From positions 1 through 13,028 of IMG/VR virus record IMGVR_UViG_2734482780_000013: a stretch of 13,028 nucleotides of DNA; one strand, 5' to 3'. The position numbers are program-made. Position 1 is the stretch's first letter; each line of letters starts with the position of its first letter. Shown piece after piece: positions 3,001 to 9,000 of this stretch. The DNA comes from a virus (taxonomy: Duplodnaviria; Heunggongvirae; Uroviricota; Caudoviricetes).

Positions 3001-6000
3001 GGAAGTGCCAAAGCCATCTGAGCTTTAATTTTTGGGTCTGCCAGAAGTCCGGCCAGAGTTGTTGGTTTCTCATTATGATGTGCAACTTGGTTACCGGTAG
3101 CCGCTGCCTTAAGTGCATTGATAGACATTTTTTCTCCTTACTTCATTCTGAAGACGCGTTGTGTCGTTGTTGTTTTGAATTTTTCGAATAACTCAGGGTG
3201 TACTGACTGGAATAGCTTCTGGTCGAATCTGTTGCTGATCTGAGATTTCCATGTGCAGAGCGGCTTTCCGTCCAGGGTCAGGACTGAGTGCTCTTGCATG
3301 TACATCTTCAGCTTCTCTTCTGATATAGCTATTTCTTCTTCCAGTGATTTTCTGCGTGACTTCATGTCTCGTAGATCGTTGAATAGTGCGAGTGCCTTTC
3401 CGTCAGCCTCGATACTTGTCCCGGCCTCTTTCTCAAACATCAGCGATACATCGCTTACGCTGGTAGCTTCCGGCGGGTTAAGATTTTTCACTCGGTCCCA
3501 GAAAGCGATTTCTTTTTCTAAGATCGCCTGGATAGTTTCTTCATCACGCTCAACCCGATAGATTCGGAAGTCGTCGCCACCGATAAGCACACCGAAAACG
3601 CATACCTGTTTGTTTGTAACCATCAACCCGTGCATGGCCTGGGCCGTGTAATGCACAGGAATTGCATCTGTCTGGATTTCTCCCCATTCTTTGGCTTTGA
3701 ACGGACTAACTGTTTTTATCTCAATGTTCTCGCCTGACGCTGCTTCTGCATCGATCTCAGCTGCAATAAAATCGTAATCACGGTGGATATAGCGGTTTCC
3801 GCGATGAACGATTTCCATCCCTGTTTCCTCAGAAAGCAGGTCTATTACGTATGGCTCCATACGCTGGCCACGCGTGAAAACTTTCTGCTTGCTTGGGTCT
3901 ACTGGTTTGACACGTGGCTGGACCTTATCCAGATAAACCTCAAGCGGGGTGCGCCATGGGCTAATTCCAAGAATCCCTGCAACATCGCTTCCTCCGATGT
4001 ATTTTGTTCTATCCATGATTCCAGCGTTCCGCATCATGCCGCGTCCCTCTGCCCATCAAGCTGATCAGCCAGATCCCAGCGGGCGATAATTGCCATTGCC
4101 TCGCGCCGGTAGGCATCCATTAGTTCTTCGAACTCAGGGCTGTCTTTAGCGGCCTCCAGTACTTCCTGGCGAACACCTTTGCCTGTTACAACGTCGAAAG
4201 TTGAGGCCAGTTGATGAAGCCGGATACTCTCAATCAGTTCAACTTGTCGGTCATATAGCTGTTCTGACAGGCGGTAGTCCTTGTCGAATGCCAGCATGAT
4301 TTTTTGAAGATTTTTCTGCTGATTAACGTTCATTATCAGCCCTCCCATATCTCGTTATCGTTGGCCACATCGCGAGCTTCTTTGCTGACGAAAGCCCACT
4401 TAATGCCTTCCTGTAAGGTGCGGAACTTCCAGCTCATGAATCCGCATGCAGTAACGCAGTACCAACCGTTGATGATTTTCCACTGCATAATTTGTTACCT
4501 CGGTCTGTTACCGTTGAGGTAATGATTATGCGTATTTGGTTTGATGTCAATAGATATGAGTTAAAAAAATTACCCGCCAGGTAATCGTATAGGCAATAAA
4601 AAAGCCGCCAGAAGGCGGCTTACTTACTGAAAAATATGATTTTATTGTTTGTTTTTTTCGTTCTGGTTGATGACAAATTCAATGTAACTTTCGATCTTTG
4701 CTTTCTCGGTTTCGGGTAACAATGCGTAGCGCGAGCGGTCATAGTTGATGGTCGCAGGGTCGTGCGGGTGAATCAGTAATTCATAGCCATGACGCCCGAA
4801 TGCGGATGCAACATTCTCCAGGGTGGAAATGGAAACGCTGACCTCATTGTTTAACAGGCGGCTGATTGTCACCTGGGCGACGCCGGATGCGCGGTGAAGT
4901 TTTCCCTGTGTTGAAAGGTCGCGGCTTTCGCTCATCCAGCGTTCCAGGTTGTGAGCCGCCAGCTGACCAATGTCGCTTGGGCCGACAGGCTGAAAACCTT
5001 CCTGAGAAAGCGAGCGATCGATATCAAGCCAGTTACGGGGTTTATTGGCGGCAGCTTCAATTTTTCGCGCAACCTGGTCGCCGATAACCTTCTTGCCAAG
5101 AGCCCAGCGGTTTACCAGATTTGCCTGAGTTCCAAGTTTTTCTGCCATCCGCGTCTGAACACCATTGAATTCACGGTCGATCAAGTCGTTGAGATTTTGC
5201 CTGCGGACGTCCTGGATACTTTTCATTTTCTGGAAAATCGCCTCATATATGAATCAGTAGATGATTCAATTTAAAGCAATATTACCCAACAGGTAAATGC
5301 ACCTCATAGGTAACTACCCTTGATTTTTGTTACCTTATGGGTGAATATTTATTATCTGAAATAAATATCAGGCAATAGCTATGAGCGATAACGGACATTT
5401 CGATTTCAAAAAGCACTGGCTTGCACTCACTCCGGATGAGCGTGAAGCCTTCGCACAGGAAGCCGGAACGACGAGTCACTATATCCAGACTCACTTAACA
5501 GGTAAGCGAAAAATGCCAGGTAAAGTATTGATGAATGGGCTTTTTAAAGCCTGTAAAACAAGACAATGGCTGCGCTCAAAAGCAGAACTGGCATACTTCT
5601 TCTACTCATGATATCCAGCTACAACCCTCTGTAGACCGCCACCCGGCGGTCTTTTCATATCTATTCGTACCTCAAAGGTAATAAAAAACCAAATCTGGTT
5701 GATCTTTTTTTTGTGTCAGCACAAAATAACCGTAATCCCAATACTAATAACAGGGCTTACCATGGAAATCATTACACGTATTGATGCCGCAAAGCGCGGA
5801 CTTAAACGCTACTACACCGGAAAACCATGTAAGCACGGACATGACAGTGAACGCTGGGTTTACAACGGACACTGTGTTGAGTGCACCATGGAATCAAACC
5901 GTCGTATCAGGGCAGAGATTAAGCAGATCATGATTAATTCCTCCCCACAACATTCAAGCTGATAGCGGAGATTAATCATGAGCAGACATGCAACAGATTG

Positions 6001-9000
6001 GGCCTGGGAGACAGATCCAGGTAGCTCGTCATTAAAGCTCATACTGCTCTCGATGGCTGACAGAGCCGATGAATATAACCTCTGCTATCCGGAGATTGAA
6101 CATGACGGTATCAACAGAAGTTGACCACAACGAATACACAGGTAACGGTGTTACGACTTCATTCCCTTATACCTTTAGGATTTTCCAGGAATCTGATCTG
6201 GTAGTACAGGTGTTTGACCTTGATGAAAATATCGCTGTGCTGGCTCTTGATACTGATTACGCAGTCACTGGTGCGGGAGGGTACAACGGCGGTAATGTAA
6301 TTCTGTCGAAGGCGTTGGCTAACGGTTATCGGATTTCTATATCACGAGAGCTACCGGTTACACAGGAAACTGATCTGCGCAATCAGGGTAAGTTTTTTGC
6401 TGAGGTGCATGAGGATGCGTTTGATAAGCTAACGATGTTGATTCAGCAGGTTCGCAGTTTGTTTAGCCTTGCGCTGCGTAAGCCATCAAGCATCGCGAAC
6501 TGGTACGACGCGCTAAACAACTATATCCGTAATCTTAGAGACCCACGAGATCCACAGGATGCGGCAACAAAAAATTATGTTGACAGTGTCGCCTATTATG
6601 TCGACAACCTTTTCAAAAGGACGCTAAGAGTTCCTGAAAGTTATGTTGATCAGATACCATCAAATGAAGAGAGAGCGAATAAAATTCTTGCTTTTAATGA
6701 TGTAGGGAGACCAATTGCCGTTTTGCCAGAATCAGGCTCGGCTTCAGATGTTCTAATTGAGTTAGCAAACAATGGTGCAAAAATAACAGGATATAAAAAT
6801 AAGGGACCATTTGCGATTTTACAGACAGTAAAAGACAAATTAGATAGGATTTATTATGTAAGTGATTATGGTGTCTTACCAACAAATAGTGCCACCGTTA
6901 ACTCTACAAATTTGCAGAACATGCTGAACGATCTGTCTGGTAAGTCCACGATTACGAGAATTGTGTTTGCAGATCAGGGTACTATTTTTGTCAATGGGCC
7001 AATCATAGTCCCTAATAACACCGACATCGAAATTAAATCCGGCGTTACGGTTTCAGGCGCGTCTGGCAATCTGAGGCCGGTATTTGTAAGTGAGAAATGG
7101 GAATATGTTCTGTCAAACAGGACAGTCTCGGGAGGTTTTGCTTCTAACACATCCGATCTTGGTAACCGCTCAGATTATATTGGGATATGGGGAGGTGGGA
7201 CCGTTGACTACAACTATTCTACGGGAGGCACCTCGAATGGGATGGAAATGCATTGCATCTGCATTGCATCAGCAGTGCGGGTTAAATTAGGTGGTGGACT
7301 GGAAATTAAAGGTGCAAGAAAATATTCTTACCTTGTAGCCAACGTTCAATATCTTGATGCTCAAGGGCTTCGTTTTAATAACAACTCTGATGGACTTCAT
7401 CTACAGCCACCTATTGATTATGCCTACGTAAGGGATCTGTACGGTACGACTGGCGATGACATGTTTGCAATGACCGGAGGGGATTACCTTGCTTACGATT
7501 TAGGGTTGCGCGGAACGTTTAATCACATCGACGTTAAGGGCATTTATGGCATTAATTCTTTATGTGCAGTAAAGGTTGCAGGAAACAGCACAACACCTGT
7601 TCGCCACCTGAGCATAGATGGTGTTTATGGTAGCTACCAGCATAGTGTAATCAGGGTGTGGACAGATGGACCAAATCTGTCACAAACCAACGTGAAAACA
7701 CTGAATATCGACAATGTCGGTGGAATTGCTGGCGCTGGCTACAGAACCATTGAATTTAAAACAGTAGGGACTGGTACTGTTACCGTCGATAACGCTGTAA
7801 TCGGCGTTATCTCGGCTAACTACTCGGCAGCAGTTGTGCCTGTAGTGTCGGTAACCACTGGGACGGCTGGCTCATCAGCAGTTCGTGTCTACAATCTGGA
7901 ATGTCGGTGCCCTCGTGATGTCGCATATTTTCTGGAGGTAGGGGGTGATGGTGCTGGTGCCGACAATAGTCGCATAGACAATCTTAATGTTAATTTCGAT
8001 AAAACCTTACTTGCTACCAGTGTGTCGGACGCAGCCGGAGTTCGTATCACCCGTGGGCAGATAAACACCGTTATTGTTTCGGGGAATATTGATTTGGTTT
8101 CCGGGCAGGCGGTGATCAGAAAGTCTAGTGGTAAAGTAGAGAAAGTTATCTTCGACAAATTAACCCAATCTAATGGTTATAGCTTTATAAGTACTGGTGT
8201 TAACTACGACAATACCACTCCCTCGTTTGAGTTTATCGGTGGATTTTTCAACAACCCAGACAAATTAACAAGTCTGGTTAGCGGCTATTCTGTTGTTTGT
8301 GGTGGTAATGTTGTATCAAGTAAAACAGGTGAAGTTTTCACTACAACAACTGGCACTGTAAATATAAGTGGGCATATGCAGTATGGAAACTCCGCTATAC
8401 CATCCACACCTGTTTCAGGGGGCACTTGGGTGATTAAAGGGTTTGGTATTTTTGCGGATGTTGGCAACGCAACTGCAGTTAGAGGGAATCACTGTTACAA
8501 CACAAATACCAGCCTTGCGGGTGGGGTTGGCCCAGTTGTTGCGAATGGTTCAAGTTGGTTAAGTGTGGTTTAATCAATAACTGATGTGATTGGCACTATT
8601 GTTATATTTATTTATGTGTGATAATTTAAATATAAATATTTAAAATGGTGTCAATCATGCAGAATAGCATATATTTAGCAATATGGGTTTTTGGTTCTAT
8701 ATTATTTGTTTCTTTAATATTTTCCATGCCTTTATTCTCATTTATGGATAAAGGCGTGAAGCTGCATAGAAATATGCAATTAACAGGTGTAAGATATATA
8801 CTTGCATCAATGGTCGTCTTTGACCATATGGACTTTTTTTTGAATTTTACCATAAATAATAAATGGTGGTTCACATCATCATTTATGTACTATATAGGAA
8901 ATCTTGGGGTTTATTTTTTCTTCATGATTACTGCTTTTTTATTTTGGGGGAAAATAAGAGACTCAGAGCGTGTTGACTGGATTTCAATGTATAAGGGAAG

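What the first reader, a model, noticed from the sequence alone, without database searches (positions are those of the whole stretch)
5963..6104. Apparent deletion junction: a replication-initiator N-terminal fragment butts directly onto the tailspike gene
The 46-codon ORF at 5978-6118 begins like the N-terminal domain of phage O-type replication proteins but terminates early and overlaps the tailspike start (6102) in a different frame. Between the early region and the tailspike there are no replication, Q-antiterminator, terminase, capsid or tail-shaft genes. Inference: a large internal deletion or illegitimate recombination joined the early region to late-region remnants, so the element is a cryptic, non-inducible prophage that retains recombination, modification, tailspike/acyltransferase and lysis functions.
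Basis: partly seen in the sequence, partly recalled or inferred. Interest (0 to 1): 0.5.

Follow-up and report, generated by a model that had tools for sequence, protein, structure and literature searches.

The report
Prophage deletion scar at recurrent hotspot
About 28 kb (replication, packaging, capsid and tail-machine genes) has been lost from an integrated phiV10/epsilon15-type virus in E. coli; that alone is ordinary, but the cut lies at the same 'TA' of the replication gene where at least 14 other deletions with different far ends also start, which suggests a sequence-directed process.

Summary
The short ORF is 5978-6124 (48 codons, not 46). Codons 1-37 are the N-terminus of the replication initiator, and the last 11 are an out-of-frame read of the tailspike leader. 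The tailspike starts at 6102, in another frame.

The interpretation also holds. The window is a remnant of a Uetakevirus (phiV10/epsilon15-type) prophage at the guaA | yfgI attachment site. Against an intact relative in E. coli EC21, 28,070 bp are missing between the initiator's codon 37 and a point 15 nt upstream of the tailspike ATG. This phage type is not lambdoid, so no Q gene or tail shaft was expected.

The same junction occurs in at least 24 contigs from other assemblies, so it is real and inherited.

What is new: the left breakpoint is a nucleotide-precise hotspot. Fifteen distinct junction alleles end at ...CTGCTA|CC. A second site, in replication gene P (...GTGATA|CC), had been seen in two genomes; a targeted search then found at least 13 alleles there. 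Of 26 deletion junctions mapped in such remnants, 22 join TA to TA, with a G-N-T-A-Y-C preference. The process behind this is unidentified.

The parts
1..195 (-). DUF1382 gene, the first gene after the integrase (the integrase lies just outside the window)
   Evidence: Pfam DUF1382. Colinear with EC21 and L004, where the integrase and guaA precede it.
192..839 (-). MT-A70 family DNA methyltransferase
   Evidence: RefSeq annotation of the homologue, Pfam hit on record, PHROG 'DNA methyltransferase'.
836..1903 (-). DGQHR/DndB-like gene, an optional cassette of about 1.1 kb in this phage group
   Evidence: Presence/absence polymorphism of 1097 bp among relatives.
1932..2183 (-). PerC-family regulator
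   Evidence: Pfam PerC.
2363..2368 (.). Second, smaller deletion scar. About 527 bp are missing relative to EC21 and to sister contig L004. It removes the AlpA-like HTH gene and the RecT C-terminus. The join is gaTA|T.. to gtTA|TCTTGG.
2355..3128 (-). RecT, 257 aa instead of 340. The RecT domain (residues 50-246) is retained and the C-terminal tail is lost.
3138..4037 (-). YqaJ-type exonuclease
   Evidence: Pfam YqaJ.
4642..5226 (-). Repressor: 194 aa with an HTH and no peptidase domain found
   Evidence: Pfam HTH_3, PHROG transcriptional regulator/repressor. The homologue is described as the repressor of phiV10-type phages in PMC9782041.
5381..5611 (+). Cro-position small regulator, followed by a terminator-like hairpin at 5633-5652
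   Evidence: PHROG 35 'transcriptional repressor'. Promoter-like site at 5327-5355 and hairpin (consensus scans only).
5762..5962 (+). Conserved 66-aa gene in the cII position, function unknown
   Evidence: PHROG 1081, annotated in relatives.
5978..6124 (+). Chimeric 48-codon ORF. Codons 1-37 are the N-terminus of the replication initiator and codons 38-48 are tailspike leader read out of frame.
6086..6087 (.). The join itself: a single TA shared by both parents. The initiator side reads ...CTCTGCTA|CCCC and the tailspike-leader side reads ...GCGACTA|TCTGGAG.
6091..6094 (+). Native Shine-Dalgarno (GGAG) of the tailspike gene. It is retained; only 15 nt of the native ~195-nt upstream intergenic region survive.
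6102..8573 (+). Tailspike, 823 aa and full length. It has a phiV10/epsilon15-type N-terminal module and a receptor-binding part shared with a P22-type tailspike.
   Evidence: PHROG 1640 and other 'tail' families. N-terminal DNA homology. Region 6772-8580 is 97% identical to a 'head-binding domain' tailspike gene (H21).
8645..9781 (+). Acyl_transf_3 O-acetyltransferase (33% G+C), followed by a two-way terminator-like hairpin at 9785-9805
   Evidence: Pfam, PHROG O-acetyltransferase, G+C, hairpin.
9941..11738 (+). Lysis cassette: holin 9941-10345, holin 10332-10640, GH19 endolysin 10630-11259, Rz (DUF2514) 11256-11738, with a lipobox-bearing Rz1-like ORF embedded at 11455-11730
11849..11865 (.). 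attR core ATTGAGTGGGAATGATT, the right end of the prophage
   Evidence: Direct repeat with attL in L004, position in the window. Identical to the published attP core of phiV10, epsilon15 and vB_EcoP_ZX5 (PMC9782041).
11958..13028 (-). Host genes yfgI (11958-12497) and yfgH (12513-13028)
   Evidence: RefSeq annotation of homologous loci. Present in 5422 of 5426 complete E. coli genomes.

Best explanation
The window is a defective remnant of a temperate podovirus of the genus Uetakevirus (phiV10/epsilon15 type). It sits at the 3' end of guaA, next to yfgI.

Shown:
- One non-homologous join at the TA at 6086-6087 links codon 37 of the replication-initiator gene to a point 15 nt upstream of the tailspike start codon.
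- Relative to an intact relative, 28,070 bp are gone. That stretch holds most of the initiator gene, gene P, the accessory early genes, terminase, portal, capsid, tail and injection genes, and the BRO-N/anti-repressor block.
- The two parents share only TA at the join, preceded by one C.
- The same junction is inherited in a clone whose sublineages later acquired three different secondary deletions in the left arm.
- The left end is a recurrent, nucleotide-precise hotspot.
- Most deletion junctions in such remnants are TA-to-TA joins at sites resembling G-N-T-A-Y-C.

Inferred:
- The deletion arose in the integrated prophage by a RecA-independent, TA-anchored breakage-and-rejoining or template-switching event at a preferred site.
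- Selection then kept cells whose prophage had lost its replication genes but kept its repressor.
- The remnant can no longer replicate, package or build particles. Having lost its anti-repressor block, it is probably locked in the repressed state.
- The tailspike keeps its own ribosome-binding site but lost its native upstream region. Any transcription must come from read-through of the cro operon or from an unmapped promoter.
- The acetyltransferase and the lysis genes are intact ORFs.
For: Family and site:
- Left arm 1-6087 is 98.5-99.2% identical to the early region of intact guaA-site prophages.
- Phage hits are phiV10, O157 typing phages 9 and 10, ZX5 and epsilon15.
- The att core equals the published one.

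Junction:
- Left homology ends at 6087 and right homology begins at 6085.
- The partner's native sequence is ...gcgacTA|TCTGGAG.
- The deleted length is 28,070 bp.

Reality and inheritance:
- The exact 48-aa product is indexed in 47 blocks of the collection. The 24 contigs read include NCBI GCA_043676575.1.
- L004 and L005 are 99.98-100% identical to the window apart from different secondary deletions.

Not a normal gene:
- 0 of 119 IMG/VR relatives carry a junction here.

Hotspot:
- 15 distinct alleles are identical through ...EYNLCY(P) and then diverge.
- Ten are mapped at the DNA level to TA-bearing partners 1.7 to 28 kb downstream, all in direct orientation.
- P(15 of 18 junctions at any one of the 21 TA sites in the first 120 codons) is about 2e-16.

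Targeted follow-up at a second site:
- Three of the five GNTACC sites in the initiator and P genes are the observed hot ends.
- The P site, first seen in AST205 and AF56, yielded at least 13 distinct chimeric P alleles that all break after ...WVVCD.

TA signature:
- 22 of 26 junctions are TA-to-TA (P about 1e-27).
- 12 of the 16 junctions outside initiator site 1 are TA-to-TA (P about 2e-14).
- G at -4, Y at +1 and C at +2 are each enriched, with P between 2e-5 and 2e-4.
Against: - The enzyme or process behind the TA joins is not identified.
- A second copy of the 8-mer GATACCCG, 107 bp downstream in gene P, is not seen as a breakpoint. Sequence alone therefore does not define a hot site; context or selection must contribute.
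- The right arm is only 85-93% identical to EC21. The deleted length and the exact parental partner sequence are inferred from relatives, not from the true ancestor.
- The window carries C at 6090 where the available tailspike leaders have T.
- The protein searches favour short products, so breakpoints deeper in the initiator gene are under-sampled.
- Distinct junctions may partly be nested events re-using a junction that still carries the hot half-site, rather than all arising from intact prophages.
- Expression of the retained genes and loss of inducibility were not tested.
Confidence: 0.88

Rival explanations
1. The join arose between two different Uetakevirus prophages integrated in tandem at guaA. 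The left arm would come from the first and the tailspike-to-attR arm from the second, so well over 28 kb was lost and the two arms never belonged to one phage.
For: Tandem arrays exist at this site in GPEC403-625 and FDAARGOS_1301. The left arm is about 99% identical to EC21 but the right arm only 85-93%.
Against: Tailspike and lysis modules are mosaic among single prophages too, so unequal identity is expected. Nothing in the window requires a second prophage. The outcome, a defective remnant, is the same either way.
Confidence: 0.08
2. The deletions were made on free, incoming phage DNA. A restriction-like nuclease left 2-nt TA overhangs at GN^TANC-like sites, compatible ends were ligated, and the shortened circle then integrated through its intact int/attP.
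For: The full palindromic hexamer G-N-T-A-N-C occurs at 8 of 13 left sites and 6 of 21 right sites, against 9% of all TA sites. The overlap is exactly 2 nt. Small colinear islands of 71 bp and 244 bp survive between large deletions in L015 and L016, as if from several cuts at once. All remnants keep the arc around attP.
Against: At least two further TA-TA deletions occurred after integration within one clone. Many partner sites lack the hexamer. An identical GATACCCG site is cold. No inverted re-ligations were seen, although TA ends would allow them. I know of no enzyme with this specificity.
Confidence: 0.07
3. Breakpoints are mutationally random, and the apparent hotspot is produced only by selection for loss of replication-gene function with retention of immunity.
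For: Both hot ends lie in the two replication genes, and the immunity region is always kept. The secondary deletions repeatedly hit the RecT/exonuclease genes, which shows that selection shapes what survives.
Against: Selection on protein function cannot place 15 events within the same 1-3 nucleotides, nor make 22 of 26 joins TA-TA.
Confidence: 0.03
4. The 48-codon ORF is a genuine conserved small gene, or the junction is an assembly artefact.
For: None beyond the existence of an ORF with a start codon.
Against: 119 of 119 relatives read through to the full-length initiator. The fragment holds half an HTH domain, below the Pfam cut-off. The junction recurs in at least 24 contigs from independent samples, including an NCBI assembly. 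The overlap is too short to cause a graph mis-join.
Confidence: 0.01

Closest known systems
Escherichia phage phiV10, Salmonella phage epsilon15, vB_EcoP_ZX5 (genus Uetakevirus)
   Same: Same attachment core and guaA site. Same early-region gene order, tailspike N-terminal module, O-acetyltransferase next to the tailspike, and two holins, GH19 endolysin and Rz before attP.
   Different: The window lacks about 28 kb holding all replication, packaging and virion genes except the tailspike. It carries a different receptor-binding domain and acetyltransferase, and has a DGQHR cassette.
Cryptic prophages of E. coli K-12 (Rac, DLP12, e14, Qin, CP4-57) and prophage 'domestication' by deletion (from my own knowledge, not tested here)
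   Same: An integrated phage reduced by internal deletions to immunity, recombination, conversion and lysis genes and stably inherited.
   Different: Here the deletion can be mapped to the nucleotide against close intact relatives, and the same breakpoint recurs in independent remnants.
Survivors of replicative killing by induced, non-excising lambda prophages, which carry O, P or ori lesions (from my own knowledge)
   Same: Hot ends fall in the initiator and P-type genes while immunity is kept. This fits selection against in-situ replication.
   Different: Those lesions are not reported, to my knowledge, at one fixed nucleotide or with a TA-TA signature.
TA-flanked excision by Tc1/mariner/IS630-type transposases and by PiggyMac in Paramecium (title and abstract of PMC6143343, seen)
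   Same: DNA between two TA dinucleotides is removed and one TA is left behind.
   Different: There are no terminal inverted repeats and no transposase at the junction. One end is fixed and the other varies. The flanking preference is G-N-TA-Y-C.
Illegitimate recombination mediated by type IIA topoisomerases (gyrase, Topo IV)
   Same: Non-homologous joins at preferred sites. G at -4 from the break is shared with the published cleavage determinants.
   Different: The published determinants are -4G, -2A, -1T with a 4-bp stagger and symmetric +5A, +6T, +8C (PMC10117906). Here -2 and -1 are T and A, the overlap is 2 nt, and there is no symmetric +5/+6 signal.
Deletion hotspots at replication-fork arrest sites joined through short microhomology (for example at Ter sites; from my own knowledge)
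   Same: One endpoint is fixed at a specific nucleotide and the partners vary, with 2-8 nt of identity. Short colinear islands are compatible with serial template switching.
   Different: No arrest site or bound protein is known here. The invariant TA is not explained by pairing strength.

Membership tests
Uetakevirus (phiV10/epsilon15-type) prophage | Integration at the 3' end of guaA through the core ATTGAGTGGGAATGATT | tested here: met
   Core at window 11849-11865. The direct repeat at attL overlaps the guaA stop in sister contig L004. Identical to the published attP.
Uetakevirus (phiV10/epsilon15-type) prophage | Nucleotide similarity and colinear gene order with type members | tested here: met
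   93% identity over 45% of the window to phiV10 and 82% over 32% to epsilon15, with matching annotated genes.
Uetakevirus (phiV10/epsilon15-type) prophage | Complete virion, packaging and replication modules (an intact, viable member) | tested here: not met
   28,070 bp holding these modules are absent. The element is a remnant of a member, not a viable member.
Defective (cryptic) prophage formed by internal deletion | Both att ends present, with essential phage genes missing between otherwise colinear arms | tested here: met
   attL and the integrase are present in sister contigs and attR is in the window. A single join at 6086-6087.
Defective (cryptic) prophage formed by internal deletion | No particle production or replication on induction | not testable with these tools
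   Needs mitomycin C or UV induction of the source strain.
   The intact relatives have a podovirus layout, with T7-gp14-like core proteins, no tail tube and no annotated Q. The closest phages are podoviruses.
Integrase-mediated recombination at a secondary att site | Similarity of the junction sites to the att core | tested here: not met
   The core ATTGAGTGGGAATGATT contains no TA and does not resemble CTGCTA|CC or the partner sites.
IS-mediated adjacent deletion | An insertion sequence retained at the fixed end of the deletion | tested here: not met
   None of the mapped junctions has an IS. Phage sequence abuts phage sequence directly.
Type IIA topoisomerase-mediated illegitimate recombination | Sites fit -4G, -2A, -1T | 4 bp | +5A, +6T, +8C | tested here: not met
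   Only -4G fits. Positions -2 and -1 are T and A, and there is no +5/+6 signal.
Homologous (RecA-type) recombination between repeats | Tens of bases of identity at the join | tested here: not met
   Identity at the joins is 2-8 nt.

The most novel reading that the evidence does not exclude
A sequence-directed, TA-centred DNA breakage-and-rejoining activity, preferring G-N-T-A|Y-C and unidentified so far, repeatedly excises DNA from Uetakevirus prophages. It starts at the same nucleotides in the initiator and P genes. It would be a specific route of prophage disarmament, encoded by host, phage or another element, rather than random decay.
Probability: 0.3. Interest if true: 0.75.

Novelty: new variant of a known kind. 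Interest (0 to 1): 0.5.

Why it matters
A deletion scar in a cryptic prophage is routine. What is unusual is the pattern around it.
- At least 15 different deletions start at one TA in the initiator gene and at least 13 at one TA in gene P.
- Nearly all joins are TA-to-TA with a common flanking preference.
- A targeted search at a second, motif-matching site turned two observed cases into at least 13 alleles.

If a defined activity lies behind this, it would explain how temperate phages of this group are converted into harmless, immunity-conferring remnants that carry serotype-conversion genes. It would also give a sequence signature for recognising such events in genomes.

The question is directly testable with existing phages (phiV10, vB_EcoP_ZX5) and standard E. 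coli genetics.

For annotation, the 48-aa ORF should be marked as a gene fragment. The tailspike, acetyltransferase and lysis genes should be treated as orphaned late genes, not as evidence of an active phage.

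Tried and rejected
1. Exact-junction search in one genome per species found nothing. The exact-protein look-up then found it.
2. A conserved small gene was rejected.
3. A secondary att site for the integrase was rejected.
4. An IS at the junction was rejected.
5. The gyrase/Topo IV consensus does not fit.
6. A hairpin at the hotspot, read by eye only: a 4-bp stem (TGCT/AGCA) at initiator site 1 and nothing shared with the other hot sites. Not pursued with folding.
7. 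By eye, I compared XerC arms, Chi-like GCTGGT, primase CTG sites, IS10/IS1/Tn3 end-like sequences, REP-like CCGGATA and the RusA '|CC' preference with the sites. Each fits only a minority, so none is adopted.
8. Pairing between the two ends of the deleted segment (TACC...GGTA) is present in only some pairs.
9. Inversions were looked for and none was found.
10. Indels among 119 intact-like relatives are module swaps, with a single TA-TA case. The signature therefore belongs to the remnants.
11. Literature searches found no description of this hotspot or signature.
12. Two top-ranked 'short' hits, H5 and H7, turned out to be tandem prophages, not remnants.
13. The promoter scan found no sigma-70-like site on the + strand directly upstream of the native tailspike. 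What drives the tailspike in intact phages remains unknown.

Full report
**What is at the coordinates.** The ORF opening at 5978 runs to a TGA at 6122-6124, giving 48 sense codons. The tailspike ATG is at 6102 in a different frame and is preceded by GGAG at 6091-6094. The first 37 residues of the short ORF are identical to the N-terminus of the 271-279 aa replication initiator of related prophages. The last 11 residues are the tailspike leader and its first codons read out of frame. The intact protein has an HTH_36 domain (residues 18-67) and a DnaT DNA-binding domain, and matches PHROG 'replication initiation protein'. The fragment keeps about half of the HTH and scores below the Pfam cut-off.

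**What the element is.** The window matches phiV10, O157 typing phages 9 and 10, vB_EcoP_ZX5 and, more distantly, epsilon15. These are temperate podoviruses of the genus Uetakevirus. In complete E. coli genomes the same early region lies next to guaA and an integrase. At the other end, the lysis genes are followed by yfgI and yfgH.

The 17-bp direct repeat ATTGAGTGGGAATGATT marks attL and attR in a sister contig and sits at 11849-11865 in the window. It is the published attP core of phiV10, epsilon15 and ZX5 (PMC9782041).

Gene content of the window:
- Left arm: DUF1382, MT-A70 methyltransferase, DGQHR/DndB-like protein, PerC, RecT, YqaJ exonuclease, two small genes, repressor, cro-like gene, a 66-aa gene, and the initiator stub.
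- Right arm: tailspike, Acyl_transf_3 O-acetyltransferase, two holins, GH19 endolysin, Rz with an embedded Rz1-like ORF.
- Then attR and the host genes.

**Mapping the deletion.** The reference is the intact prophage of strain EC21 (NZ_CM169480.1, assembled). The left arm aligns at 98.5-99.2% up to reference position 26620. The right arm resumes at 54688. Window position 6087 corresponds to both 26620 and 54690, so 28,070 bp are absent.

The lost interval contains the rest of the initiator gene, replication gene P, DUF1064, Ead/Ea22-like, DUF551 and ASCH genes, both terminase subunits, portal, capsid and decoration genes, tail and injection proteins, and a leftward block that includes a BRO-N protein.

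At the join the parents read ...CTCTGCTA|CCCCAGC (initiator) and ...GCGACTA|TCTGGAG (tailspike leader). The window reads ...CTCTGCTA|TCCGGAG. The shared sequence is TA preceded by one C. The deletion leaves the tailspike's ribosome-binding site but only 15 nt of its ~195-nt native upstream region.

**Is it real and inherited?** The exact 48-aa product is indexed in 47 blocks of the assembly collection. All 24 contigs read carry the same arrangement, with guaA and the integrase on the left and yfgI, yfgH and pdeF on the right. They come from Logan assemblies of sequencing runs and from NCBI GCA_043676575.1.

Two representatives are 99.98-100% identical to the window wherever they align, but each lineage has its own extra deletion in the left arm:
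- The window lacks about 527 bp, covering the AlpA-like HTH gene and the RecT tail.
- L004 lacks window 3094-4222, which fuses RecT and the exonuclease.
- L005 lacks window 546-4255.

Decay therefore continued after the primary deletion. No complete E. coli genome in the collection has the junction. None of 119 IMG/VR relatives does either; all read through into the full-length gene. This disposes of the 'conserved small gene' alternative.

**The unexpected part: the left breakpoint is shared.** Strain VG48B2, a complete genome, has the initiator gene cut at the same place but joined to a site upstream of the small terminase gene. Searching the protein collection with the 48-aa ORF, and as a control with the first 80 residues of the intact initiator, returned many short products. 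They are identical through ...EYNLCY or ...EYNLCYP, and each then diverges into a different tail. Counting the window and VG48B2, there are 15 distinct junctions at this codon. By comparison there are two at codon 69/70 and one at codon 35. The remaining short products include frameshift variants rather than junctions.

I recovered the contigs for eleven of these alleles. In every mapped case the partner lies downstream in the same orientation. Partners fall in the DUF1064 gene, the accessory early genes, the terminase region, the capsid gene and tail genes, 1.7 to 14 kb away, or 28 kb for the window. With 21 TA dinucleotides in the first 120 codons, 15 of 18 junctions at any one of them has a probability of about 2e-16.

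**The joins are TA to TA.** In 118 of 119 intact relatives the initiator reads CTGCTAC. The junction alleles read CTGCTA followed by the partner's own next base. In every mapped case the partner's native sequence has TA immediately before that base.

I called junctions blindly in 17 remnant loci against intact relatives. The other deletions in these elements behave the same way. In total 22 of 26 junctions are TA-TA, including the window's second scar and two or three further scars each in L016 and L021. Of the 16 junctions not at initiator site 1, 12 are TA-TA. TA should account for about 4% of two-base matches, giving P of about 1e-27 and 2e-14 respectively. The four exceptions comprise one AT join, two blunt joins that share one end, and one probable module boundary.

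Flanking positions are also biased. Each has P between 2e-5 and 2e-4 against all TA sites of the prophage:
- G at -4 in 21 of 33 sites.
- Pyrimidine at +1 in 30 of 33 sites.
- C at +2 in 21 of 33 sites.

The full hexamer G-N-T-A-N-C is present at 8 of 13 left sites and 6 of 21 right sites, against 9% expected. Indels among the intact-like IMG/VR relatives are module swaps with other boundaries; only one is TA-TA.

**A second site, followed up.** The initiator and P genes contain five GNTACC sites. Two are the breakpoints in the initiator gene. A third...TGTGATA|CCCGCC in gene P, is the shared left end of two otherwise different remnants, AST205 and AF56.

I then searched with the first 210 residues of P. 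At least 13 distinct chimeric or truncated P alleles, 96-99% identical to the query, all break after ...RHPVMYWVVCD, exactly at that TA. They continue into terminase, Gp10-like, DUF551, tailspike or other sequence. One, P0060, uses the same partner site as VG48B2. Another, P0071, is an in-frame fusion into tailspike codon ~15.

Partner sites are also re-used:
- ccggTA|TGGGAAACC in L015 and L142.
- gcgggTA|T as a left site in L021 and a right site in L143.
- The 5' end of the tailspike gene three times at three different TAs: the window, AST205 and P0071.

An identical GATACCCG 107 bp further into P is not used. The short motif is therefore not sufficient.

**How it most likely works.** Three things are shown: a non-homologous, TA-anchored join; recurrence at defined nucleotides; and continued small deletions of the same type within one clone.

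My inference is that a break or a stalled 3' end forms preferentially at G-N-TA|C-C sites in the integrated prophage and is rejoined to a downstream TA. Selection then enriches events that destroy the initiator or P while keeping the repressor. Selection is also visible in the repeated loss of the RecT/exonuclease genes.

Two kinds of process fit the joins, and I cannot separate them:
- Serial template switching from a fixed pause. This is supported by strictly colinear partners and by islands of 71 bp and 244 bp surviving between large deletions.
- Staggered cleavage with a 2-nt TA overlap followed by rejoining. This is supported by the palindromic hexamer and the invariant TA.

Tested and not supported:
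- Integrase action at a pseudo-att site.
- IS-mediated deletion.
- Homologous recombination (identity of only 2-8 nt).
- The published gyrase/Topo IV determinants -4G, -2A, -1T with a 4-bp stagger.

**Consequences for the element (inference).** Without the initiator, P, terminase and virion genes it cannot replicate or form particles. The repressor has no detectable autocleavage domain. In ZX5 the homologous repressor is described as countered by an anti-repressor, and the block that would hold the anti-repressor is deleted. The remnant is therefore probably locked.

The tailspike, acetyltransferase and lysis ORFs are intact. They now lie directly downstream of the cro operon, with a terminator-like hairpin after cro. 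Whether they are expressed is unknown. The 33% G+C acetyltransferase is the most plausible selected cargo.

**Verdict.** The corrections are that this is a podovirus of the phiV10/epsilon15 group rather than a lambdoid phage, and that the element carries a second scar. As a single locus it is an ordinary cryptic-prophage junction. The recurrent, nucleotide-precise TA|CC breakpoints are not ordinary. I found no description of them in four literature searches.

Noticed in passing
window 2363-2368: A second deletion scar. About 527 bp present in EC21 and in sister contig L004 are missing, which removes an AlpA-like HTH gene and the last ~83 codons of RecT. It is also a TA-TA join (gaTA|T / gtTA|T).
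   Followed up: yes
L004 8248-8250; L005 8278-8279 (sister contigs of the window): Contigs with the identical main junction and 99.98-100% identity carry different secondary deletions. L004 lacks window 3094-4222 (a TA-TA join that fuses RecT and the exonuclease). L005 lacks window 546-4255 (an AT join). Three independent left-arm deletions have arisen in one clone with almost no point differences.
   Followed up: yes
window 6772-8580 and 8645-9781: The tailspike is mosaic. Its receptor-binding part is 97% identical to a 'phage head-binding domain' (P22-type) tailspike gene in E. coli FACU 2024, while the N-terminal module is phiV10-type. The adjacent 33% G+C acetyltransferase was not covered by any of the 30 best-ranked complete E. 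coli genomes.
   Followed up: partly
L011 (NZ_CM142769.1) and L012 (NZ_CP070111.1): Two Uetakevirus prophages lie in tandem at the guaA site. The upstream one carries an endosialidase (K1-capsule-type) tailspike.
   Followed up: no
L015 8104-8173; L016 6109-6354: Very short colinear islands (71 bp of the DUF1064 gene, 244 bp of the capsid gene) survive between two large TA-TA deletions. This looks more like one multi-step event than two independent deletions.
   Followed up: partly
P0112, P0113, P0119, P0125 (replication protein P alleles): A frameshift at P codon 139 gives a 200-aa product. It is widespread, with clusters of 29 and 7 member sequences and a hit on a complete chromosome. This is a different, non-deletion route of inactivating the same gene.
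   Followed up: no
P0015-P0017, P0029; EC21 initiator codons ~95-140: The initiator gene contains tandem PKNGMLND-type repeats whose copy number varies between strains. I take these to be the origin iterons. Several alleles appear frameshifted in or near this region.
   Followed up: no
L001 16323-16842 (AST205 yfgH); L008 15179-15718 (FG31-1 yfgI): The host genes flanking attR are annotated as pseudogenes in two strains that carry remnants: a frameshift in yfgH and an internal stop in yfgI.
   Followed up: no
window 836-1903; relatives: The DGQHR/DndB-like gene next to the MT-A70 methyltransferase is a 1097-bp presence/absence cassette among otherwise near-identical early regions. Its boundaries are not TA-TA.
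   Followed up: partly
L009 3103 and L141 3084: Two remnants share one blunt deletion end (...GGCTTTGTC|) in the left arm but have different partners. On the opposite strand both partners end in TACCGG. This could reflect a 4-nt offset variant of the same process.
   Followed up: partly
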